Shown here: piece after piece, positions 551-40,951 of the stretch
How positions within the stretch are numbered: position 1 is the first letter of the stretch
Layout: each line of letters opens with the position of its first letter
Virus record (IMG/VR): IMGVR_UViG_3300033075_000861
Span: 1-64,000 of that record
Source of the DNA: a virus
Lineage: Duplodnaviria; Caudoviricetes
Strand: one strand, 5' to 3'
Length of the DNA: 64,000 nt
Position numbers and translations under genes: made by a program
The notes under the pieces: model-generated
Databases searched by the model: none
Seen by the model: the letters and a program-made list of their open reading frames with translations, nothing else
Told to the model about the DNA's origin: nothing

Positions 551-1436
551 CTTCATCATCGAAACCGATTTGGGGCACGACCCCGACGACCTGTTCTGCA
601 TCTGCCACCTCATCGAGGCCGGGCATCGCATCCTGGCCCTTGGCCTGGTGTCAGGCTCATACGAGCAGTTGTTCCTCGCTCACGGACTGAGGCAGCACCT
701 CGGTCAGGACTTCCTGATCGGCATCCAGAAGGACGACGCCCTGCCCGGCAAGGCACGCACCCGCGAGAGATTGGGCATCCACTCGGACCTGATCAACCAC
801 TACGGTTGGGACAAGCTCGACGTTTACGCCCATGACCTGAGCCAGAACGTCTTCAAGACCGCCCTCACCGAGAACCCCGAGGCCGAAATCCTCGTCATCG
901 GTCCAGCCCCCGGCCTAGGCAAGGTCGCCGCCTCCGACGACAAAGAGTTGTTCCGGGGCCGCACCATGACCTTCCAGGGCGGCTTCCTTCCCTACAGCCT
1001 GCACCGCCCGTCCAACCCTTTGCCCCAGTTTGAGGGCAAGGAGGCGGTGCCCACGTTCAACTTCAACGGCGACCGGAAGGCCGTAGATGCCCTCCTGAAC
1101 GCACCATTCGCCCTCAGACGCTTCTGCGGCAAGAATGTGTGCCACGGCATCTACCTCGACCAGAAGCGTTCTGAGGGCTTCCTAGAGCCTAGGAACGCCG
1201 CTGGTGAGGTGTACACCAGGGCCGTGAGGATGTATCTGGAACGGCACGAAGGCAAGAAGATGCACGACCCGACCGCCCTCGCCTGCCACCTGTACCCGGA
1301 CATCGCCACATGGTTCAGGGGACAGCCGAGGCGGAAGGACAGCGGCTGGACGACCCACCCCTGGTCCAACGGCGACTACGTCTTGGCCGACGTGGATCAC
1401 GAACGCCTGTGGGAGGTCATCCTGGGGAGGATGTGA
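543..1436 (+). CDS. inosine/uridine-preferring nucleoside hydrolase family protein
   Basis: N-terminal ETDLGHDPDD (DxDxGxDD-like) motif, IGP, FNF and HDPTALA motifs. Confidence 0.85.
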   Translation: MADFIIETDLGHDPDDLFCICHLIEAGHRILALGLVSGSYEQLFLAHGLRQHLGQDFLIGIQKDDALPGKARTRERLGIHSDLINHYGWDKLDVYAHDLSQNVFKTALTENPEAEILVIGPAPGLGKVAASDDKELFRGRTMTFQGGFLPYSLHRPSNPLPQFEGKEAVPTFNFNGDRKAVDALLNAPFALRRFCGKNVCHGIYLDQKRSEGFLEPRNAAGEVYTRAVRMYLERHEGKKMHDPTALACHLYPDIATWFRGQPRRKDSGWTTHPWSNGDYVLADVDHERLWEVILGRM

Positions 1437-34652: not shown

Positions 34653-34737
34653 TGAGGCGACAACTACCTGCCGAGGTGTGAGCGGAAGACTAACGGCGTA
34701 GCCGTGATGGACCAGTGCTTCGACTCAATTCACAAAG

Positions 34738-34826
34738 CGGAAGGAGCGGGAGTCGAACCCGCACAGCACCTTTCGGTGCTGACTCGGCTTCCAACCGAGC
34801 GGACTTGCCAATGTACCAACCCTTCC
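34738..34826 (-). tRNA. tRNA-Ser(GGA)
   Basis: Acceptor GGAAGGG/TCCTTCC, loop TTGGAAG, long variable arm, GGTTCGA, G73. Confidence 0.9.
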
Positions 34827-35018
34827 TTACGTTCTCCCGAAGGAGAGGTTCTTCTGCAAACGGACCTCCTTGTTGAGAAAGGTCCAGCACTCGCCGCTCT
34901 CGTCCAAGAAGATCACCCACATCAGGTCGTGTTCCTGGGAGTAGTCGATCAAGACATGGGCAAATCCTTTGCCCCTAGGGGTGTCCAGCGGGATCGGTGG
35001 ATCAAGCCTGAGCATCAT
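34827..35018 (-). CDS. small conserved phage protein
   Basis: LDPPIPLDTPRGKGFAH...IDYSQEHDL; CTAGATA 4 nt upstream. Confidence 0.7.
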   Translation of the reverse strand: MMLRLDPPIPLDTPRGKGFAHVLIDYSQEHDLMWVIFLDESGECWTFLNKEVRLQKNLSFGRT

Positions 35019-35025
35019 GCCCTAT

Positions 35026-35223
35026 CTAGTCTTTTGTCAGGTTGGCCGTCGTATGACCGTGGGCGGTCCCGATCTCTAGGATCGTTTTCGCCTCGGAGTG
35101 CTTGAGCAGGGCAAGGATTACAGCCACGTCCAGAAGCGGCGTGTAGTACGACAGGGCGTCGGGGGCCTCGACCCGGTTATACTTGCCAAAGAACTCGTCT
35201 TGGCTGATGGTGGCGATCTTCAT
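35026..35223 (-). pseudogene. truncated SAM-methyltransferase
   Basis: Ends 9 residues after motif I (ILEIGTAHG) at a TAG that lies within the CTAGATA motif of the next gene. Confidence 0.55.
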
Positions 35224-35225
35224 GC

Positions 35226-35459
35226 CTAGAACATAGTAGGTTCGTGACCGAAGTCCTCACGCAGCCGCCGCCGGCAGTTCTCGTAGTAGGACGCCTTCCT
35301 CTGGTCGATCTCGGCGTCGGCGTAGTTGTGGGCGATGAACAGCCCCTGGAGGATGTCCCAGTCGTTGTCCCACAGCACCTCCAGCCAGAATAGCCTGTCC
35401 CGACGCTCGTCATCGGGGAGGCTGAGGATCTCAGCCCTCGATTCTTCATAGGTCTTCAT
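35226..35459 (-). CDS. hypothetical protein
   Basis: 77 aa. Confidence 0.6.
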   Translation of the reverse strand: MKTYEESRAEILSLPDDERRDRLFWLEVLWDNDWDILQGLFIAHNYADAEIDQRKASYYENCRRRLREDFGHEPTMF

Positions 35460-35483
35460 GAAAAGCTCGCCTTATCATCTAGC

Positions 35484-36194
35484 ATGGGTACTTCCATACT
35501 AGCTGAGTGGGGCATTGACGAATACCGCCTCACCAACATCCTGAGCAACAACCCTAGCCTAAAAGGCATGCTTCTGGGCTACGTTGCCGAGGACAAACTG
35601 ACCGAGCGGCTGGCGGGCGACCACCGCCTTGTCGTGCTTGAGAAGCCGGACGACCACGACCGGAAGAACAAGGGCGACCGCGTGGTGTCCTACAAGGGCC
35701 ACAGGTTCCGTATGGAGTCCAAATGCCTCCAGGGCAACTCGATCAAGAGGAGTGCCGCCGGCGGCAGCGGCAAGGCCCAGTGTGACGCCAGTGATTGCAG
35801 GATGGTGGTGCTGCCCGATGGTCAGGCGGTCAAAACGACGTGTCTCAAGTACGACGAGTTCGACATCCTGGCCGTGTGCCTTTACTCGCTGACAGGTTCA
35901 TGGGATTTCGGATTCATCCTCAACAGGGATCTGCCGCCTACCGGGGCCTACACCGAGGATGTCAACCGTCACCTCATCAAGACATCGGTCAGCATCGAGT
36001 GGCCCTTGAGGTCGCCATTCGTGGATGACTACTGCCCCCTGATGGACCTGCTTATCGAGCGGAAGGAGCGGGAGTTGAACCCGCAGTCCCCCGAGGGGGA
36101 CGGCAGTTTAGCAAACTGCTGCGACGAACCGATAGTCGCCTCCCTTCCATGTGTCCAATCCAGTCGCCCAGAGTTACTTGTCGCCTTGGCGTGA
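35484..36194 (+). CDS. restriction-endonuclease-like (PD-(D/E)xK) free-standing nuclease
   Basis: NPSLKGMLLGYVAE, DDHDRKNKGD, MESKCLQ, DASD, EFDILAV; the C-terminus runs antisense through tRNA-Ser(GCT). Confidence 0.65.
   Translation: MGTSILAEWGIDEYRLTNILSNNPSLKGMLLGYVAEDKLTERLAGDHRLVVLEKPDDHDRKNKGDRVVSYKGHRFRMESKCLQGNSIKRSAAGGSGKAQCDASDCRMVVLPDGQAVKTTCLKYDEFDILAVCLYSLTGSWDFGFILNRDLPPTGAYTEDVNRHLIKTSVSIEWPLRSPFVDDYCPLMDLLIERKERELNPQSPEGDGSLANCCDEPIVASLPCVQSSRPELLVALA
36060..36148 (-). tRNA. tRNA-Ser(GCT)
   Basis: Stem GCAGT/ACTGC, loop TTGCTAA, long variable arm. Confidence 0.9.
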
Positions 36195-36276
36195 TCTCGC
36201 CTGCCACAGCTTTCACTCAGGCCCCAGGGGTTCTGCTGAGAGTCGTTTCACGACACTAAGACCGAATCGAACAGTT

Positions 36277-36523
36277 TCAGTCGATGACCAAGCATATCAG
36301 ACCAGCGTGTAGTCTCCTGTGACAGTTGGCACAAAGTATCACGCACTTGGCTATCTCGTCCTTAATCCTTGGCATTCCGTAGTCCCGGTCCCGTCCTATG
36401 CTGAAAGTCTTGTCCCGCAAGTGATGGAAATCCAAGCAGGCCACGCATGTCTCGCCGCCCAGCCCTCTTCTTGTTGAAGTCGGCTATAGGTTTTTCTTCG
36501 TTGCAGAGTGTGCAGGTCTTCAT
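36277..36523 (-). pseudogene. HNH endonuclease pseudogene (internal deletion/frameshift)
   Basis: Frame 1 MKTCTLCNEEKPIADFNKK; frame 2 CVACLDFHH...EIAKCVILCANCHRRLH. Confidence 0.7.
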
Positions 36524-36567
36524 GTCCTAATGTAGTCAGGGAGATGAAAACCTGCTCTGTATTTCAG

Positions 36568-36639
36568 TGCCACCCCACGGAGTTGAACCGTGGCTCGATG
36601 CTCTTCAGGCATCTGTGCAGACCCCTACACCAGAGTGGC
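36568..36639 (-). tRNA. tRNA-Phe(GAA)
   Basis: GCCACTC/GGGTGGC, GATGC-CTGAAGA-GCATC, GGTTCAA. Confidence 0.85.
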
Positions 36640-36668
36640 ATTTGACGGAGACATAATCGCCTGCGGGT

Positions 36669-36753
36669 TGATTCCTGTGGGATTCGATACCCACAAATCC
36701 CTTGCGGGATGCCGACTTTTGAGGTCAGTGTGTTTACTTTACACGAAGGAACC
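36669..36753 (-). tRNA. atypical tRNA-Leu(CAA) inside a bipartite stem cassette (36643-36773)
   Basis: GGTTCCT/AGGAATC, GTGT/ACAC D-stem, CTGAC-CTCAAAA-GTCGG, variable arm ATCCC-GCAA-GGGAT, 8-nt T-loop. Confidence 0.7.
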
Positions 36754-36774
36754 GCAAACTGCAACTTCCGTCAG

Positions 36775-36858
36775 TCGGGGAGGCGGGAGTCGAACCCGCA
36801 TGGCTCAAGGCCGGCATGGTTTAAGCATGCTGTGTCTCACCATTTCCACCACACCCCG
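36775..36858 (-). tRNA. tRNA-Leu(TAA)
   Basis: GCATG-CTTAAAC-CATGC, long variable arm. Confidence 0.85.
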
Positions 36859-36859
36859 A

Positions 36860-37165
36860 TTACTCGTAACCCAACTCCTTGATCGCCCTGTCGGCATCCT
36901 TCTTGTAGCCGATGCCGACCTTAGACCTCTCCCTCCTGATGAGGTTCTCCGCGTGTGCCTTGAGACTAAGGGCATCGGTGTTTCTTTTCCGCCACCTCTT
37001 CGCAGCACGTCTGTGTCCTTCGGGATTATCTTTCCTGCGTTGCCTCGATTTTTCAGCACGACATTGCAGGCACTGGTAGTCTAACCCAGACTTGGTGGCT
37101 TCGTTTACGCCGAACGCCGAAGTCGGTTTGGCGTTTTTGCAACCGCTACAATAGGTCAGGTTCAT
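36860..37165 (-). CDS. Zn-ribbon DNA-binding domain of a homing endonuclease, no nuclease domain visible
   Basis: YCSGCKNAKPTSAF...GLDYQCLQC. Confidence 0.6.
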   Translation of the reverse strand: MNLTYCSGCKNAKPTSAFGVNEATKSGLDYQCLQCRAEKSRQRRKDNPEGHRRAAKRWRKRNTDALSLKAHAENLIRRERSKVGIGYKKDADRAIKELGYE

Positions 37166-37192
37166 GTGAGTCTCCTGACCTATTGTAGCGGC

Positions 37193-37564
37193 TCAGAACT
37201 CGTCGTCGTTGGGCCAGTCGTCGGGGTCGGTGCCCCACTCCTCAAGGAAAGCCCTGACCTTCTTGCCCTTGTCGGTCAGCCAGCTTCCGCCGACGCTGCC
37301 GCCGTGTTCCATCAGTCCGTGAGCGTTTAGGAAGTACAGGATCAGCATGTCGTAGCCGCTGCCTGGGCCTTCCCAGTTGCCGCCGCGAGCGTAAGCCCAC
37401 GCCTTGCGGTCGCCGCCCTCGTCGTAGGCTCTCAGCGTCTCCAAAAGGGCGTCGTAGCCCTCGTCGGGGTTGCCGCAGCCGCAGAAGTCGAGACTGCGGA
37501 TGCCCTGAAGTCCTTCTTTCCAGGCTTGCATGGCTTCCATGTGTATCCTCTTCTTCCGCTTCAT
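37193..37564 (-). CDS. hypothetical protein
   Basis: FCGCGNP...MEHGGSVGGSWLTDKG; GAGGAG RBS. Confidence 0.7.
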   Translation of the reverse strand: MKRKKRIHMEAMQAWKEGLQGIRSLDFCGCGNPDEGYDALLETLRAYDEGGDRKAWAYARGGNWEGPGSGYDMLILYFLNAHGLMEHGGSVGGSWLTDKGKKVRAFLEEWGTDPDDWPNDDEF

Positions 37565-37576
37565 GTGACTCCTCGT

Positions 37577-37664
37577 TCCGTCTGATTGGTGGGAATCGAA
37601 CCCACAGGGCCTCGCCGGCACGGTGTGCAACCGTTTGACCTGCCAATGTCTACAGCCAGACGGA
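37577..37664 (-). tRNA. atypical class II tRNA with a Tyr-like body, GCA anticodon and extended acceptor stem
   Basis: D-loop ATTGGCAG as in the adjacent tRNA-Tyr; ACGG-TTGCACA-CCGT; GTGGG-TTCGATT-CCCAC. Confidence 0.55.
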
Positions 37665-37666
37665 AG

Positions 37667-37749
37667 TGTGTCGTGCAGGAGTCGAACCTGCAAGGCTCTA
37701 AGAGCGGCACGGTTACAGCGTGCTGGGCCTGCCAATGCCCAAACGACAC
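37667..37749 (-). tRNA. tRNA-Tyr(GTA)
   Basis: GTGTCGT/ACGACAC, GCACG-CTGTAAC-CGTGC. Confidence 0.9.
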
Positions 37750-37751
37750 AT

Positions 37752-37878
37752 GATGGGTGCAAAGCCCGGCGTAACCGTGCCCTGTCCGAAGTCGGTCAAT
37801 TCATAGTCATCAGCCGCTTTTACGGCAACGCTCCGTTAGCTCCCATATCCACCGGGTTCGGACCCGGAGTTCATCCAG
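37752..37878 (-). ncRNA. unassigned structured RNA candidate between tRNAs
   Basis: Non-coding gap with hairpins (CCGGG-TCCGAA-CCCGG; CCGA/TCGG). Confidence 0.35.
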
Positions 37879-37960
37879 AAACGGCGGTGGGACTCGCACC
37901 CACGGTGGCTTACGCACCGGCTTTGCAGGCCGGCCCCTTCGCTGCTCGGGTCACGCCGTC
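37879..37960 (-). tRNA. tRNA-Cys(GCA) with an enlarged variable region
   Basis: GACGGCG/CGCCGTT, U73, CCGGC-CTGCAAA-GCCGG, ~13-nt variable region, T-loop TGCGAGT. Confidence 0.8.
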
Positions 37961-37965
37961 ATGAG

Positions 37966-38103
37966 TGACGCTGGTCGGCATCGAACCGACACCACAGCAC
38001 TATCCCCAACGATCCTCTCCCTTTGTGCTACAGGTATGGGAACCCCTGTGTCCGTAACTATTCGGGGACGTGTTATCTGAGGCCCGCCCTTCGCGGTGCG
38101 TCA
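37966..38103 (-). ncRNA. tRNA-like RNA (acceptor + T-arm, multi-hairpin interior)
   Basis: TGACGC/GCGTCA, GTCGG-TTCGATG-CCGAC, AGCAC/GTGCT stem with a 24-nt loop. Confidence 0.55.
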
Positions 38104-38107
38104 TCAG

Positions 38108-38190
38108 TGCCTAAGGCGGGAGTCGAACCCGCATGCCCTTACGAGCGGCAGTTTTTGAAACTGCTGTGTATGCCTTTCCACCACTTAGGC
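38108..38190 (-). tRNA. tRNA-Leu(CAA)
   Basis: GCCTAAG/CTTAGGC, GCAGT-TTCAAAA-ACTGC. Confidence 0.92.
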
Positions 38191-38193
38191 GTT

Positions 38194-38338
38194 TGACCGG
38201 AGAAATAGTCACTAAGGGTTTTTCTGTTTAGCTTCTCGGCCTTAGGGTTGGGCGAAGTGGCCGAGGTAGGATTTGCACCTACAATCTACACTTTTTCAGG
38301 GTGTTGCTGAAGTATCCCTTAACTGCAACTTCCGGTCA
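38194..38338 (-). ncRNA. circularly permuted tRNA-Phe(GAA)-like RNA inside a bipartite stem cassette
   Basis: Order on the minus strand: D-3' (AGC), anticodon arm ACACC-CTGAAAA-AGTGT, T-arm GTAGG-TGCAAAT-CCTAC, acceptor-3' CTCGGCC+A, 16-nt linker, acceptor-5' GGCCGAG, D-5' GCT. Confidence 0.75.
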
Positions 38339-38339
38339 G

Positions 38340-38421
38340 TGTCCGAGGTGGGACTTGCACCCACACGCCCGAAGGCACGGCCCCCTCAAGACCGGGCGTC
38401 TGCTAATTCCGCCACTCGGAC
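38340..38421 (-). tRNA. tRNA-Leu(GAG)
   Basis: GTCCGAG/CTCGGAC, CGGTC-TTGAGGG-GGCCG. Confidence 0.88.
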
Positions 38422-38937
38422 AAGTCGTCTCTTGCGAGACTGATATCTGGCTGTCGTCACTTCGGTCATACCTTGGTCACCAGACCAACCTTCGGTACAA
38501 GCATGGCAGTTAGGGCATAGGAATTGGAGGTTGTCGGAACGGTTGTCGCCCCAATCTCCATTTTTGTGGTTGACTTGTAGCTTCAAGTGTTTGCCATACC
38601 AGCACCCGTTGCAACCACAACCCTCACACTCATACGTTCGTCCAGACTCGATGAGGGCACGTCTGAGAACGTATGGTTTCTCTCTCCAATCTCGTTCCTC
38701 CTTGATCAGGATGGTCGTCCAATGCCTCTTGTCGGGACCGCCCCTGTGTGACTCGCCGCTGTTAGCACGTTGTCCCAGCATGTGGCTGGTGTCGAGGTTG
38801 TACCGCTTGATCCACCGGACGATGTTCTGCTGAGTACCGCCAGACCATTTGACGCCCAGCTTTTTGATGACCTCGGCAATCGACACCGAGTCGCGGACCA
38901 GAGGCTCCAACAGTTCTTTGGTGTATTTCCTTCGCAT
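38386..38937 (-). CDS. HNH homing endonuclease
   Basis: YECEGC...LQVNHKNGDWGDNRSDNLQFLCPNCH; the stop lies inside tRNA-Leu(GAG). Confidence 0.85.
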   Translation of the reverse strand: MRRKYTKELLEPLVRDSVSIAEVIKKLGVKWSGGTQQNIVRWIKRYNLDTSHMLGQRANSGESHRGGPDKRHWTTILIKEERDWREKPYVLRRALIESGRTYECEGCGCNGCWYGKHLKLQVNHKNGDWGDNRSDNLQFLCPNCHACTEGWSGDQGMTEVTTARYQSRKRRLVRVAELADARS

Positions 38938-39007
38938 GCCCCTAGTAGAGTCATGCGTCATCAAATTGGGCAAGTCTACTTCACTTGTTTTCCATCCTAG
39001 CCTCCAG

Positions 39008-39089
39008 TGGTCATGGTGGGAGTCGAACCCACACCCCCGTAGGGAACGGCTTCTGAAACCGTCGCGTTTACCAGTTACGCCACATGACC
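39008..39089 (-). tRNA. tRNA-Leu(CAG)
   Basis: GGTCATG/CATGACC, ACGGT-TTCAGAA-GCCGT. Confidence 0.92.
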
Positions 39090-39620
39090 TACAGTGTCGA
39101 GGGCGGGATTTGAACCCGCACGCCGATTAAGGCACCCGCTTCTAAGGCGAGCATGGCTGCCAGTTACATCACCTCGACATGGTTTTTGACTGTGACAGTT
39201 AGGGCAGAGGAATCTGAGGTTACCTGGGGTGTTGTCGAGCCAGTCCTCGTTTACATGATCGACCTCTAGGATGATCTCTTTCTTCTGCCACTCACAGATG
39301 CCACAGTCTTCGCACTTGTATTTCCTGCCTGACTCAATCAGGGCACGTCGTAACCGACTAGCCTGAACCCTGTTTTGAACGCCTTGCTTGCGAACAAGCA
39401 CCTCTTCCCACGACTTCTTGTTGGAGCCGTGCCACTGCTTGAGCTTGTCGTAATGAGGGGCGAAGTGGGATATGTCTATCCCGGCTCTCACGATACGCTT
39501 CTTGATGTGGGCGTAGTTGCCGCCACTTAGCCTGATGCCCAACTGGGTCATCACGTCCGTCATGGAGTTGCTTTCACGAACAACCGCCATGAGTCGCTCG
39601 TCGGTGTACTTGTATCTCAT
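39075..39620 (-). CDS. HNH homing endonuclease (paralog of 38386-38937)
   Basis: YKCEDC...LEVDHVNEDWLDNTPGNLRFLCPNCH; the ORF reads through tRNA-Leu(TAG). Confidence 0.85.
   Translation of the reverse strand: MRYKYTDERLMAVVRESNSMTDVMTQLGIRLSGGNYAHIKKRIVRAGIDISHFAPHYDKLKQWHGSNKKSWEEVLVRKQGVQNRVQASRLRRALIESGRKYKCEDCGICEWQKKEIILEVDHVNEDWLDNTPGNLRFLCPNCHSQKPCRGDVTGSHARLRSGCLNRRAGSNPALDTVGHVA
39095..39178 (-). tRNA. tRNA-Leu(TAG)
   Basis: GTCGAGG/CCTCGAC, CTCGC-CTTAGAA-GCGGG. Confidence 0.9.
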
Positions 39621-39671
39621 ACCGGATTGTAGGAGACACGCTTTTGCACGACCAGCAGGTTTGCCAGACAG

Positions 39672-39758
39672 CGGAATGCGAGAGAATCGAACTCTCCTCC
39701 CCTTGCGGGGAACCTGGGTTCGGGCCAGGCCCAGCCAACCAATATCTGGCTGCATTCC
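39672..39758 (-). tRNA. tRNA-Ser(CGA)
   Basis: GGAATGC/GCATTCC, G73, CCTGG-CCCGAAC-CCAGG (C33 atypical). Confidence 0.8.
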
Positions 39759-39763
39759 GTAAA

Positions 39764-39884
39764 TGGTGCAGGGAGCAGGGTTTTCACCTGCGAGTGGACG
39801 GCACCTATCCGTCATAGTCGCCGGCAACCATACGGCTACCGTCTGTCTAACGCTCTTGCGTCCAAGGCTTCCGACTTCCCCTGC
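39764..39884 (-). ncRNA. tRNA-like RNA with encoded CCA and a large D-loop insertion
   Basis: GCAGGGG/TCCCTGC-A-CCA, T-arm GCAGG-TGAAAAC-CCTGC, D-stem GTCG/CGAC enclosing two hairpins, non-canonical anticodon loop. Confidence 0.6.
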
Positions 39885-39890
39885 ATGTAC

Positions 39891-40142
39891 TCACTTGGTC
39901 TTGGGCATCGAGTCGCCCGTCGCCTTCCTGTGGCCCTTGATCGCGTCGTGCGAGTCGTACATCTCGTCGTCCTCACGCCGTCCGTGGACCGACTTCACGA
40001 CCCAGCCGTTGTCCCAGGCGTCGTCGCCGTTCTTCAACTTCAGCGTCTTGTTGAGGACGGAGAACTTCTCGGGAATCCAACTCATCTGGTGCGAGTTCCC
40101 CTTCTGGAGCCTGCACTGACGGTAAGCGGTTTTCTTGCTCAT
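39891..40142 (-). CDS. small hypothetical phage protein
   Basis: AAGGAGG RBS; YRQCRLQKG...SWIPEKF. Confidence 0.7.
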   Translation of the reverse strand: MSKKTAYRQCRLQKGNSHQMSWIPEKFSVLNKTLKLKNGDDAWDNGWVVKSVHGRREDDEMYDSHDAIKGHRKATGDSMPKTK

Positions 40143-40174
40143 GGCCCTCCTTAGGGGGTTGGTGTTTAGGACAG

Positions 40175-40258
40175 TGTCGGAGGTGGGAGTCGAACCCACA
40201 CACCCTTACGGGTACGGCCTTCTGAGGACCGGGCGTCTACCAGTTCCGCCACTCCGAC
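40175..40258 (-). tRNA. tRNA-Leu(CAG)
   Basis: GTCGGAG/CTCCGAC, CGGTC-CTCAGAA-GGCCG. Confidence 0.9.
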
Positions 40259-40259
40259 A

Positions 40260-40345
40260 TGGTGGGTGTGTGAGGAATCGAACCCCCTATCTCTCTGAGC
40301 GTCGGGTTTACAGCCCAACTGGCTTCCCACAGCACTAGCACACCC
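40260..40345 (-). tRNA. tRNA-Tyr(GTA), CCA encoded
   Basis: GGGTGTG/CACACCC-A-CCA, TTGGG-CTGTAAA-CCCGA. Confidence 0.8.
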
Positions 40346-40348
40346 AAG

Positions 40349-40437
40349 CGGAATGCGAGAGAATCGAACTCTCCTCCCCCTTGCGGGAGAAACTGGGTTC
40401 AAGCCAGCCCCGGCCAACCAATATCCGGCTGCATTCC
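40349..40437 (-). tRNA. tRNA-Ser(TGA)
   Basis: Near-copy of 39672-39758; loop CTTGAAC. Confidence 0.88.
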
Positions 40438-40439
40438 GT

Positions 40440-40473
40440 ATAGGCCGGGCACCTGGGCTGGTGCCCGGCCTAT
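40440..40473. repeat. perfect 14-bp hairpin within the tRNA operon
   Basis: ATAGGCCGGGCACC-TGGGCT-GGTGCCCGGCCTAT; no U-tract. Confidence 0.6.
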
Positions 40474-40522
40474 GGTAGTTGTCGCCAAGTTGTCAAAGAA
40501 CACCGGAGTTAGGGTCCGGTAG

Positions 40523-40596
40523 TGCCGCCCCACGGAGTTGAACCGTGACCCCTAGGGTTTCAAGCTAGTGTGCAGACACCCCTACACCAGAGCGGC
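40523..40596 (-). tRNA. tRNA-Phe(GAA), paralog of 36568-36639
   Basis: GCCGCTC/GGGCGGC, CTAG(C)-TTGAAAC-(C)CTAG. Confidence 0.75.
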
Positions 40597-40746: not shown

Positions 40747-40833
40747 TCAAACCGCAAGCCGATCAAGGCCGCTGAGAAACAGCGACGACAACAGGCAGAG
40801 GCTATACAGCAAGCAAGCGGAGAAGGAAATCAC
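40747..40833 (-). CDS. putative leader peptide MISFSACLLYSLCLLSSLFLSGLDRLAV
   Basis: GTG 8 nt after GGAG; sits between a promoter and a terminator; S/F/C/L/Y-rich. Confidence 0.6.
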   Translation of the reverse strand: MISFSACLLYSLCLLSSLFLSGLDRLAV

Positions 40834-40923
40834 GGATGTAGCTCCGAGGATGTCTCTTGTTCTCTTATCGGCCAGCGGGAACTCTCCCGAGGCTCGGATG
40901 AGGGCACTAGGCCCTACATCCCT

Positions 40924-40951
40924 AATATAGCCAGGTCGCCTCAGTTTTCAA
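40924..40951 (-). promoter_or_regulatory. promoter of the leader/tRNA operon
   Basis: TTGAAA-N16-TATATT with the same spacing as the other promoters. Confidence 0.6.

What the first reader, a model, noticed from the sequence alone, without database searches (positions are those of the whole stretch)
38194..38338. Circularly permuted tRNA-Phe gene, opened in the D-loop
Seen on the minus strand: (D-3')CAGC-A-[ACACC CTGAAAA AGTGT]-AGATT-[GTAGG TGCAAAT CCTAC]-CTCGGCC-A73-(16-nt linker)-GGCCGAG-AA-GCT(D-5'). The acceptor 3' strand comes before its perfect 7-bp complement, so the tRNA's 3' part is encoded upstream of its 5' part; standard tRNA finders would miss it. Established: permuted tRNA genes are known from Cyanidioschyzon, some green algae and Thermofilum, and mature via BHB cleavage, circularisation and RNase P/Z trimming; bacterial YrlA RNAs are permuted mimics but lack an anticodon arm. 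I know of no phage example with an intact anticodon arm, though I cannot check the literature. Caveat: joining at the predicted sites would leave a ~40-nt D-loop insertion, so it may be a mimic rather than a decoder.
Basis: partly seen in the sequence, partly recalled or inferred. Interest (0 to 1): 0.9.

Follow-up and report, generated by a model that had tools for sequence, protein, structure and literature searches.

The report
Rearranged tRNA-Phe look-alike in phage operon
A 148-base spacer in a giant phage's tRNA operon is a rearranged phenylalanine tRNA gene that folds into a back-to-front tRNA shape with a sealed acceptor end on a paired stalk, so it is more likely a tRNA mimic or a gene relic than a working tRNA.

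Summary
On the minus strand of 38338-38191 lie an anticodon-like arm (loop CUGAAAA), a T arm, CUCGGCC-A, a 16-nt linker, the perfect complement GGCCGAG, then AA-GCU.

Three things are new.
- The element sits where a related phage (L089) has an ordinary tRNA-Phe(GAA), and it aligns with that gene from position 1 to 73. It is therefore a nested rearrangement of that gene. The old acceptor stem (GGAAGUU / GACU^UCC) has become a 20-bp stalk.
- The same stalk carries an unpermuted tRNA-Leu-like body 1.5 kb away (36773-36640). All 20 pairs are kept, with three double changes and one paired indel.
- The stalk, T arm and sealed 7-bp acceptor fold robustly. The anticodon and D stems do not (about 10% of the ensemble). 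ARAGORN at default settings rejects every un-permuted version I built.

No homolog with this layout turned up in about 1.4 Mb of related phage DNA. Neither the record nor its nearest complete relative encodes a splicing endonuclease, RtcB or Ro60. No RNA data could be obtained.

Best reading (about 0.5): a co-transcribed tRNA-mimic RNA, closest to M. smegmatis-type YrlA. A decaying relic gets about 0.3. A real permuted decoder gets at most 0.05. Earlier notes of this scan report other phage permuted tRNA mimics on other DNA.

The parts
38191..38338 (-). Whole 148-nt spacer RNA (element B) between tRNA-Leu(GAG) and tRNA-Leu(CAA)
   Evidence: folds at -46.3 kcal/mol, z = -3.97
38331..38338 (-). 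Stalk helix H1, 5' strand (UGACCGGA); pairs with 38194-38201
   Evidence: pair probability 0.81-1.0; kept in paralog A with a paired indel
38194..38201 (-). Stalk helix H1, 3' strand (UCCGGUCA)
38325..38330 (-). Stalk helix H2, 5' strand (AGUUGC). With the last three bases of H1 it is the old tRNA-Phe acceptor 5' strand GGAAGUU
38207..38212 (-). Stalk helix H2, 3' strand (GUGACU), followed by the 5-nt bulge AUUUC at 38202-38206
38316..38321 (-). Stalk helix H3, 5' strand (UAAGGG; the former D-loop region)
   Evidence: pair probability 0.91-1.0; three double changes against paralog A
38213..38218 (-). Stalk helix H3, 3' strand (CCCUUA)
38306..38311 (-). D-stem 3' strand UU(C)AGC
   Evidence: aligns with the UUUAGC of relatives' tRNA-Phe
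38288..38304 (-). Anticodon-like arm ACAC(C)-CUGAAAA-(A)GUGU, with GAA at 38295-38297
   Evidence: only about 0.09-0.10 in the thermodynamic ensemble
38266..38282 (-). T arm GUAGG-UGCAAAU-CCUAC (G at position 55)
   Evidence: pair probability 0.98; identical to the T arm of an ordinary tRNA in L146
38258..38265 (-). Acceptor 3' strand CUCGGCC plus discriminator A (38258)
38242..38257 (-). 16-nt linker that seals the acceptor stem. It starts with CU, like the trailers of the operon's real tRNAs
38227..38241 (-). Acceptor 5' strand GGCCGAG, then A8A9, then D-stem 5' strand GCU(A)AA
   Evidence: 11 of 15 bases match the 5' end of the tRNA-Phe in L101
36640..36773 (-). Paralogous stalk (element A) carrying an unpermuted tRNA-Leu(CAA)-like body
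   Evidence: (30.9 bits with the model built from B)

Best explanation
Element B is a tRNA-derived structured RNA, a circularly permuted tRNA mimic, and not a decoding tRNA.

Shown:
- It lies inside a single minus-strand tRNA operon with no promoter or terminator of its own.
- It occupies the site of a canonical tRNA-Phe(GAA) in a related phage and is collinear with that gene.
- An insert of about 55 nt between the T arm and the old 3' acceptor strand supplies a new 3' acceptor strand, a 16-nt loop, its perfect complement and a second D-stem 5' strand.
- The old acceptor stem plus leader-trailer pairing now forms a 20-bp stalk with two bulges. The same stalk, with compensatory changes, carries a different tRNA-like body 1.5 kb away.

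Inferred:
- RNase P cleavage at the 5' end of the downstream tRNA-Leu(CAA) and 3'-end processing of the upstream tRNA-Leu(GAG) release B as a stable RNA of about 148 nt with paired ends.
- Its head presents a T arm stacked on a sealed 7-bp acceptor helix. This 'minihelix' is what RNase P, RNase Z, the CCA-adding enzyme and many tRNA-binding proteins recognise.
- As in Mycobacterium smegmatis YrlA, the loop may be opened by RNase P and the end given CCA, leaving a nicked RNA held together by the stalk.
- Its likely role is to occupy or divert a tRNA-binding factor, either a host tRNA-targeting defence or a tRNA-processing or modifying enzyme. It is unlikely to read codons.
For: - One promoter-like site (40951-40924) and one strong terminator (34653-34622) bracket the array.
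- Stalk helices, T arm and sealed acceptor have pair probabilities of 0.76-1.0.
- The permuted cloverleaf on the stalk scores -42.6 kcal/mol, against -32 to -36 for the collinear fold.
- G.U pairs in the stalk make the pairing specific to the transcribed strand.
- Stalks A and B share 20 pairs, all paired in both copies, with 3 double changes, 3 one-sided compatible changes and 1 paired indel. Sliding the partners by 1-3 columns gives only 29-45% paired.
- Synteny and collinearity with the L089 tRNA-Phe.
- The T arm is identical to that of an intact tRNA in the distant phage L146.
- The inner 3' end follows the N73-C-U trailer rule of the operon's real tRNAs.
- Sealed-acceptor permuted tRNA look-alikes recur in tRNA arrays of related large phages: L106, L121, L143 and L145.
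- Precedent: M. smegmatis YrlA has a 7-bp sealed acceptor that M1 RNA cuts in vitro, and it is cleaved and given CCA in vivo (PMC4201824).
Against: - It is a singleton. No element with this layout was found in about 1.4 Mb of related phage DNA, in IMG/VR exact-motif scans or in GTDB genomes.
- The syntenic site in L089 holds an ordinary tRNA, so conservation of the head cannot be shown.
- The perfect helices could simply reflect a recent rearrangement.
- No partner protein was found. TROVE is absent, and so is any relative of the protein encoded beside the L106 double mimic. The record covers only about 17% of the genome, though.
- The stalk may be selected only as a processing hairpin for the neighbouring tRNAs, whatever it carries.
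Confidence: 0.5

Rival explanations
1. Non-functional relic. A tRNA-Phe gene was wrecked by a local rearrangement: a junction piece from two tRNA copies (3' end, spacer, 5' start) was inserted, perhaps during homing-endonuclease traffic. The remnant still folds only because the parts are tRNA-derived and the event is recent. The stalk is kept solely as a spacer hairpin that helps process the neighbouring tRNAs.
For: - The syntenic site in L089 is an intact tRNA-Phe.
- Two other tRNA-Phe(GAA) genes make this copy dispensable.
- HNH endonuclease genes are interspersed in the array.
- The tRNA features are degraded: A8 instead of U8, a C31.A39 mismatch, no G18G19 equivalent, and failure in ARAGORN at default settings.
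- B has diverged from the L089 tRNA-Phe more than the neighbouring tRNA-Leu(GAG) has from its ortholog.
- No homolog exists.
- Spacers with long terminal stems and no tRNA-like content occur in the related array of LR756511.1.
Against: - Helix H3 (6 bp) joins the former D-loop region to the tail of the insert. Descent does not explain this, and A has a differently sequenced 6-bp counterpart at the same place.
- The T arm and the 7-bp acceptor are both perfect.
- The array holds several other well-folded odd tRNA-like RNAs.
- Related phages carry sealed-acceptor mimics.
Confidence: 0.3
2. Two-piece (split) chargeable tRNA-like RNA. RNase P cuts before G at 38241, the 3' end is trimmed to A at 38258 and CCA is added. 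The two pieces stay together through the acceptor, D stem and stalk. The complex is charged with Phe and serves a non-ribosomal or unusual translational role. No ligation is needed.
For: - A 7-bp acceptor stacked on a 5-bp T stem, A73 and a GAA anticodon loop with U33 and A37.
- A trailer context like the real tRNAs.
Against: - The anticodon and D stems are weak in the ensemble.
- The D loop, which carries PheRS identity position 20 (my own knowledge), is replaced by a 20-bp stalk that should clash with ribosomal elbow contacts (inference).
- No RNA data.
Confidence: 0.1
3. Genuine circularly permuted tRNA-Phe gene. The stalk acts as a bulge-helix-bulge-like site, the excised body is circularised by a ligase, and RNase P and RNase Z then remove the linker. 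The product is a CCA-ended tRNA with a hairpin-expanded D loop.
For: - The order is 3' part, 16-nt intervening sequence, 5' part. This is within the 1-74 nt range of known cases, and a 20/21 junction is known in C. merolae (PMC3978253).
- A 4-bp helix flanked by bulges on opposite strands can be drawn in both A and B.
- The neighbouring element at 39884-39764 is a CCA-ended tRNA-like RNA with a 51-nt D-loop domain.
- The nearest complete relative encodes Rnl1- and Rnl2-type RNA ligases.
Against: - The host is bacterial, judged by class II tRNA-Tyr and a sigma-70-type promoter. No bacterial enzyme that cuts bulge-helix-bulge sites is known.
- No EndA or RtcB in the record or in LR756511.1.
- The strict 3-4-3 drawing costs 16 kcal/mol and the 5-4-3 drawing 3.4 kcal/mol against the plain stalk.
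- About 42 nt would remain between the D-stem strands.
- ARAGORN at default settings rejects the re-joined forms.
Confidence: 0.05

Closest known systems
YrlA-type bacterial and phage Y RNA-like tRNA mimics, especially M. smegmatis YrlA (Rfam RF02553; Chen et al. 2014, PMC4201824)
   Same: Both are RNAs whose 5' and 3' ends pair into a stalk carrying a tRNA-shaped head, with a T arm next to an acceptor stem closed by a loop. The 7-bp sealed acceptor of the M. smegmatis RNA is cut by RNase P and gets CCA. YrlA RNAs are also found in phages.
   Different: - B keeps an anticodon-like arm.
- Its stalk joins at the D loop, not at the anticodon position.
- Its acceptor loop is 17 nt.
- It has no GNCGAA(N)G motif (it reads GACCGGAAG).
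- The RF02553 model gives no match at E up to 10.
- No Ro60/TROVE gene is in the 84-kb record or in the nearest complete relative.
- It lies as a spacer inside a tRNA operon.
Circularly permuted tRNA genes of Cyanidioschyzon merolae, some green algae and Thermofilum pendens (Soma 2014, PMC3978253)
   Same: The 3' part is encoded before the 5' part, with a short intervening sequence. The junction is in the D loop, as for C. merolae tRNA-Leu(UAA) at 20/21. The leader and trailer pair.
   Different: - The host is bacterial, and no splicing endonuclease was found.
- The bulge-helix-bulge drawing is energetically disfavoured.
- The re-joined product would not be a normal cloverleaf (about 42-nt D region).
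- There is no evidence of circular RNA or of a mature tRNA.
Canonical phage tRNA-Phe(GAA), for example L089:2434-2506 at the syntenic site
   Same: Same position after the HNH gene and tRNA-Leu(GAG), with the same 5-nt spacer. It has the same 5' acceptor strand GGAAGUU, an identical anticodon loop, and is collinear through N73-CUU.
   Different: In B the 3' acceptor strand does not pair with the 5' strand. The partner strands are displaced downstream in a nested arrangement.
Anticodon-less double tRNA-mimic RNAs in phage tRNA arrays
   Same: They have a T arm followed at once by a sealed acceptor hairpin and then 8-9 plus D-arm sequence. They lie in tRNA arrays of large phages that carry the same HNH family.
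   Different: - Those have 4-7-nt acceptor loops, some encoding ACCA.
- They have a complete D hairpin after the acceptor and no anticodon arm.
- The model built from B does not pick them up convincingly.
- No relative of the protein encoded beside the L106 RNA is in this record.

Membership tests
Circularly permuted tRNA gene (Soma 2007/2014) | 3' part upstream of 5' part, joined by an intervening sequence of 1-74 nt with a complementary acceptor | tested here: met
   CUCGGCC-A, 16 nt, then GGCCGAG
Circularly permuted tRNA gene (Soma 2007/2014) | The re-joined sequence is a regular cloverleaf that tRNA finders recognise | tested here: not met
   ARAGORN at default settings finds nothing in four in-silico joined forms. 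It calls tRNA-Phe(gaa) only at -ps90. About 42 nt would lie between the D-stem strands.
Circularly permuted tRNA gene (Soma 2007/2014) | Leader and trailer form a bulge-helix-bulge (or relaxed) motif at the junction | tested here: inconclusive
   A 4-bp helix with bulges on opposite strands can be drawn. The 5-4-3 form is 3.4 kcal/mol worse than the plain stalk and the strict 3-4-3 form 16 kcal/mol worse.
Circularly permuted tRNA gene (Soma 2007/2014) | A splicing endonuclease and a ligase are available | tested here: not met
   No PF01974 (EndA) or PF01139 (RtcB) in the record or in LR756511.1. Rnl1- and Rnl2-type ligases occur only in the relative. The record is about 17% complete.
Circularly permuted tRNA gene (Soma 2007/2014) | A circular intermediate and a mature CCA-ended tRNA are seen in RNA | not testable with these tools
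YrlA / Y RNA-like (RF02553) | Match to the family covariance model | tested here: not met
   No RF02553 match at E up to 10 over 37800-38700
YrlA / Y RNA-like (RF02553) | Encoded next to a Ro60/Rsr (TROVE) gene | tested here: not met
   No PF05731 in the 84-kb record or in LR756511.1. The record is a fragment.
YrlA / Y RNA-like (RF02553) | Terminal stem with the GNCGAA(N)G Ro-binding motif | tested here: not met
   The stalk 5' strand reads GACCGGAAG in B and GACGGAAG in A, which does not fit the motif as given in PMC4201824
YrlA / Y RNA-like (RF02553) | A head that mimics the T arm, a sealed acceptor stem and the D arm; the stalk takes the place of the anticodon arm | tested here: inconclusive
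   The T arm and the sealed 7-bp acceptor are present and robust. However, the stalk replaces the D loop and an anticodon-like arm is retained.
Canonical tRNA (RF00005) | Full-length match above the gathering score | tested here: not met
   Partial match only: model positions 9-63, 21.6 bits against 29

The most novel reading that the evidence does not exclude
B is a true permuted tRNA-Phe of a bacteriophage. The stalk shared by A and B would be a processing site for an unknown bacterial or phage endonuclease. The excised body would be circularised by a phage Rnl-type ligase and opened by RNase P and RNase Z. The product would be a chargeable, CCA-ended tRNA with a hairpin in its D loop, like the neighbouring CCA-ended element at 39884-39764. 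A variant of this reading is that it works as a nicked two-piece chargeable tRNA without ligation.
Probability: 0.1. Interest if true: 0.9.

Novelty: new variant of a known kind. Interest (0 to 1): 0.5.

Why it matters
If the RNA is stable and processed, it would be a third way to build a tRNA mimic from a tRNA gene. The molecule would be opened at the D loop, keep an anticodon arm, and stand on a stalk recycled from its own acceptor stem.

It also shows a plausible path by which permuted tRNA-like RNAs arise: a nested rearrangement inside an existing tRNA gene, here with the unrearranged gene still visible in a relative.

Together with the other odd tRNA-shaped RNAs in the same operon, it suggests that giant-phage tRNA arrays are places where tRNA-derived non-coding RNAs are made. 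These could act in counter-defence or in control of tRNA processing.

If it is only a relic, it is still a useful warning. Perfect back-to-front acceptor pairing can arise by descent from tRNA pieces.

Tried and rejected
- Exact-motif scans found nothing real. The T arm plus acceptor motif gave no hit in IMG/VR or GTDB genomes. The stalk motif gave five chance hits. The Leu(GAG)-Phe junction motif gave no hit.
- A GenBank phage blastn of the region hit only the flanking tRNAs.
- Synteny through the Mre11-like gene gave related class II tRNA arrays (L002, L008, L010, L013, L048) with no homolog of B.
- My scanner for 'T arm followed by a downstream acceptor complement' found only B at strict settings. 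At loose settings it found chance AT-rich hits.
- A loose stalk-motif scan gave only noise.
- A covariance model built from B found only A plus ordinary tRNAs.
- I first read GUUA/CAGC upstream as B's own D arm, with the break between positions 7 and 8, following the Rfam partial match. I dropped this because those bases are held in stalk helix H3 (pair probability above 0.9, cis D stem about 0). They are nevertheless the ancestral D arm.
- I considered the outer stem as the true acceptor of a tRNA with an insert. The in-silico 'spliced' form is not called tRNA-Phe by ARAGORN.
- No intact tRNA with a GGCCGAG/CUCGGCC acceptor, which could have been a donor, is in the record.
- Pfam scans of ten neighbouring ORFs found only an HNH domain.
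- A literature search for 'permuted tRNA' with 'phage' found no phage case. A search for the T4 'species 1 RNA' found nothing in the library.

Full report
**What is there.**
On the minus strand, the 148 nt from 38338 to 38191 fill the gap between tRNA-Leu(GAG) (38421-38339) and tRNA-Leu(CAA) (38190-38107).
- (UU)CAGC, then A;
- ACAC(C)-CUGAAAA-(A)GUGU;
- AGAUU;
- GUAGG-UGCAAAU-CCUAC;
- CUCGGCC-A;
- a 16-nt linker;
- GGCCGAG-AA-GCU(A)AA.

The 31-39 pair is C.A, so the anticodon stem has 4 bp. ARAGORN and Rfam at gathering threshold miss the element. The Rfam tRNA model matches only positions 9-63 at 21.6 bits, below the gathering score of 29. In shuffles of the downstream sequence, a perfect 7-nt complement occurs with P = 8.7e-4. 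With GCU two bases later, P = 1.5e-5. The arrangement is therefore real. Whether it reflects function or descent is the question.

**Context.**
The window is part of an 84-kb IMG/VR virus record that CheckV rates about 17% complete. Its Mre11-like protein is 52% identical to that of LR756511.1, a 595-kb uncultured phage. The array at 40.6-34.7 kb holds only Leu, Ser, Tyr, Phe and Cys tRNAs. It is bracketed by one sigma-70-like promoter (40951-40924) and one strong terminator (34653-34622). B is therefore an internal spacer of a single operon. tRNA-Tyr is class II, which is a bacterial trait. Relatives share a syntenic class II tRNA operon.

**Fold.**
I number the element from 38338 as base 1.
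- The minimum-free-energy fold (-46.3 kcal/mol, z = -3.97) and the ensemble give a robust stalk. H1 pairs 1-8 with 138-145, followed by the 5-nt bulge AUUUC. H2 pairs 9-14 with 127-132, followed by the 3-nt bulge AGU. H3 pairs 18-23 with 121-126.
- They also give a robust T arm and a robust 7-bp hairpin placed directly after it. All of these have pair probabilities of 0.76-1.0.
- Adding the trans D stem (GCU(A)AA 107-112 with UU(C)AGC 28-33) and the anticodon stem gives a permuted cloverleaf on a stalk at -42.6 kcal/mol.
- That is 7-10 kcal/mol better than the collinear tRNA fold.
- It is 3.7 kcal/mol worse than the minimum, which replaces the D and anticodon stems with another hairpin (24-32 with 40-51).
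- In the ensemble, the anticodon and D stems reach only about 0.08-0.10.

The 'intact anticodon arm' is thus the weakest part of the claim. The sealed acceptor plus T arm 'minihelix' is the strongest.

**A second copy of the stalk.**
The spacer at 36773-36640 (element A) has the same 5' strand (17 of 18 bases identical) and a related 3' strand. It carries an unpermuted, atypical tRNA-Leu(CAA)-like body attached by its acceptor end (Rfam 40.8 bits). Over the 20 stalk pairs, all cells pair in both copies. There are three double (compensatory) changes in H3, three one-sided compatible changes and one paired indel in H1. Sliding the 3' partners by 1-3 columns gives only 29-45% pairing. Several pairs are G.U, so the pairing makes sense only on the transcribed strand. 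With two sequences this is suggestive, not statistical. It does indicate that the stalk is a selected RNA structure.

**Origin.**
Homologs of the HNH endonuclease just upstream (58-68% identical) led to contigs with the same gene followed by tRNA-Leu(GAG).
- In L089 the next gene, after a 5-nt spacer, is a canonical tRNA-Phe(GAA).
- Aligning the two loci shows that B is collinear with this gene over positions 1-73. It shares the 5' acceptor strand GGAAGUU (bases 6-12 of B), the D region, the UU(U/C)AGC, the anticodon arm with an identical loop, the T arm, and the discriminator followed by CUU.
- The difference is that B's 3' acceptor strand (CUCGGCC) cannot pair with GGAAGUU. Its own complement lies 17 nt downstream. 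The complement of GGAAGUU (GACU, the 5-nt bulge, then UCC) lies further downstream still.
- B is therefore the local tRNA-Phe gene with a nested rearrangement. An insert of about 55 nt looks like the 3' end, spacer and 5' start of a second tRNA. Its 5' piece matches 11 of 15 bases of the tRNA-Phe in L101, including A8A9.
- The old acceptor stem has become H1/H2 of the stalk.
- B's T arm is identical to that of an ordinary tRNA in the distant phage L146.
- No intact donor tRNA with a GGCCGAG acceptor is in the record.

**Search for homologs.**
No element with B's layout was found by any of these:
- exact-motif scans;
- my structural scanner over about 1.4 Mb of related loci;
- a covariance model built from B.

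The scanner did find seven other T arms that lack an upstream partner and have a perfect downstream acceptor complement. These lie in tRNA arrays of large phages carrying the same HNH family (L106 twice, L121 twice, L134, L143, L145). Five that I inspected (L106, L121, L143) are anticodon-less, sealed-acceptor tRNA look-alikes with 4-7-nt loops, some encoding ACCA. L145 looks like a near-copy of L143 in the scanner output. The L134 hit is AT-rich and I did not inspect it. Permuted tRNA mimics are therefore common in this kind of phage. B is a singular variant of them.

**Enzymes.**
No EndA, RtcB or TROVE/Ro60 is in the record or in LR756511.1. LR756511.1 does encode Rnl1- and Rnl2-type RNA ligases. 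A bulge-helix-bulge drawing of the stalk is possible but disfavoured: +3.4 kcal/mol for the 5-4-3 form and +16 kcal/mol for the strict 3-4-3 form. Joining within the bulges would leave about 42 nt between the D-stem strands. ARAGORN at default settings rejects all four re-joined forms I built. It calls tRNA-Phe(gaa) only at a relaxed threshold.

**Mechanism and odds.**
- *tRNA mimic (about 0.5).* B is released from the operon transcript by the cuts that mature its neighbours. It folds as a stalk with a tRNA-shaped head and acts as a tRNA mimic. Its sealed 7-bp acceptor may be opened by RNase P and given CCA, as shown for M. smegmatis YrlA (PMC4201824).
- *Relic of a wrecked tRNA-Phe gene, with the stalk kept only as a processing hairpin (about 0.3).* Two other tRNA-Phe(GAA) genes exist (36639-36568 and 40596-40523). 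Only closer relatives can separate recent rearrangement from selection.
- *Nicked two-piece chargeable tRNA-like RNA (about 0.1).*
- *True permuted tRNA matured through a circle (at most 0.05).*

**Comparison with what is known.**
Functionally B is closest to YrlA-type tRNA mimics. It fails the tests for that family that I could run: the family model, Ro60 adjacency, the Ro-binding motif and the point where the stalk attaches. It shares the gene order and a D-loop junction with the permuted tRNA genes of algae and Thermofilum (PMC3978253). It fails on cloverleaf quality and on the enzymes. I found no paper describing a phage permuted tRNA. Earlier notes of this scan, which I did not check, report other phage permuted mimics and one permuted tRNA-Asn on other DNA.

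**Verdict.**
This is a new variant of a known kind, with moderate interest.

Noticed in passing
window 36640-36773 (-): Element A has the same three-helix stalk as B but carries an unpermuted, atypical tRNA-Leu(CAA)-like cloverleaf (Rfam 40.8 bits). Its D loop lacks GG and its T loop is odd. ARAGORN does not call it.
   Followed up: partly
window 40747-40951 (-); L008:18400-18700 (-); L013:1491-1790 (-); L048:1196-1495 (-): A promoter, a short leader ORF and a terminator precede the tRNA operon in this phage and in three relatives. The leader peptide is rich in the amino acids whose tRNAs follow. It is rich in Ser/Leu/Tyr in the relatives, and Phe and Cys are added here, where Phe and Cys tRNAs are present. 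It looks like attenuation of a tRNA operon.
   Followed up: partly
window 39764-39884 (-): A CCA-ended tRNA-like RNA with A8A9, a G55-type T loop (UGAAAAC) and a two-hairpin domain of about 51 nt in place of the D loop. This is the unpermuted counterpart of B's architecture.
   Followed up: no
window 37966-38103 (-): A 138-nt spacer with a terminal stem and a canonical T arm, but a multi-hairpin core instead of D and anticodon arms.
   Followed up: no
L106:560-860 (+): Two tandem sealed-acceptor, anticodon-less permuted tRNA look-alikes, each with a T arm, a 7-bp acceptor with a 7-nt loop and a full D arm. They lie in a 392-kb IMG/VR phage, just downstream of an ORF with no Pfam match.
   Followed up: partly
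L121:730-860 and 1300-1400 (+); L143:60-150 (+): Further permuted tRNA-like modules. In L121 the acceptor loops read ACCAAAU and ACCAAAC, which is an encoded ACCA.
   Followed up: no
L090:5680-5900 (+): A stem of about 9 bp encloses two successive D-arm/T-arm units, a 'double' tRNA-like RNA. It lies right after an HNH gene and a Leu(GAG)-like tRNA.
   Followed up: no
window 38266-38282, 38339-38421, 37878-37960 (-); L146:1931-2005 (+): Several tRNAs of this phage group have G instead of U at T-loop position 55 (UGCAAGU, UGCGAGU, UGCAAAU), although this position is almost always U.
   Followed up: no
window 34737-40596 (-): Nearly all tRNAs of the operon lack an encoded CCA. Their discriminator base is followed by C and then U (for example ACUGA or GCUUG). 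B's inner 3' end follows the same rule.
   Followed up: partly
LR756511.1 9009-9617, 64649-65263, 156137-156655 (L094, L095, L098): The nearest complete relative (595 kb) encodes one T4 Rnl1-type and at least two Rnl2-family RNA ligases, but no RtcB, EndA or Ro60.
   Followed up: no
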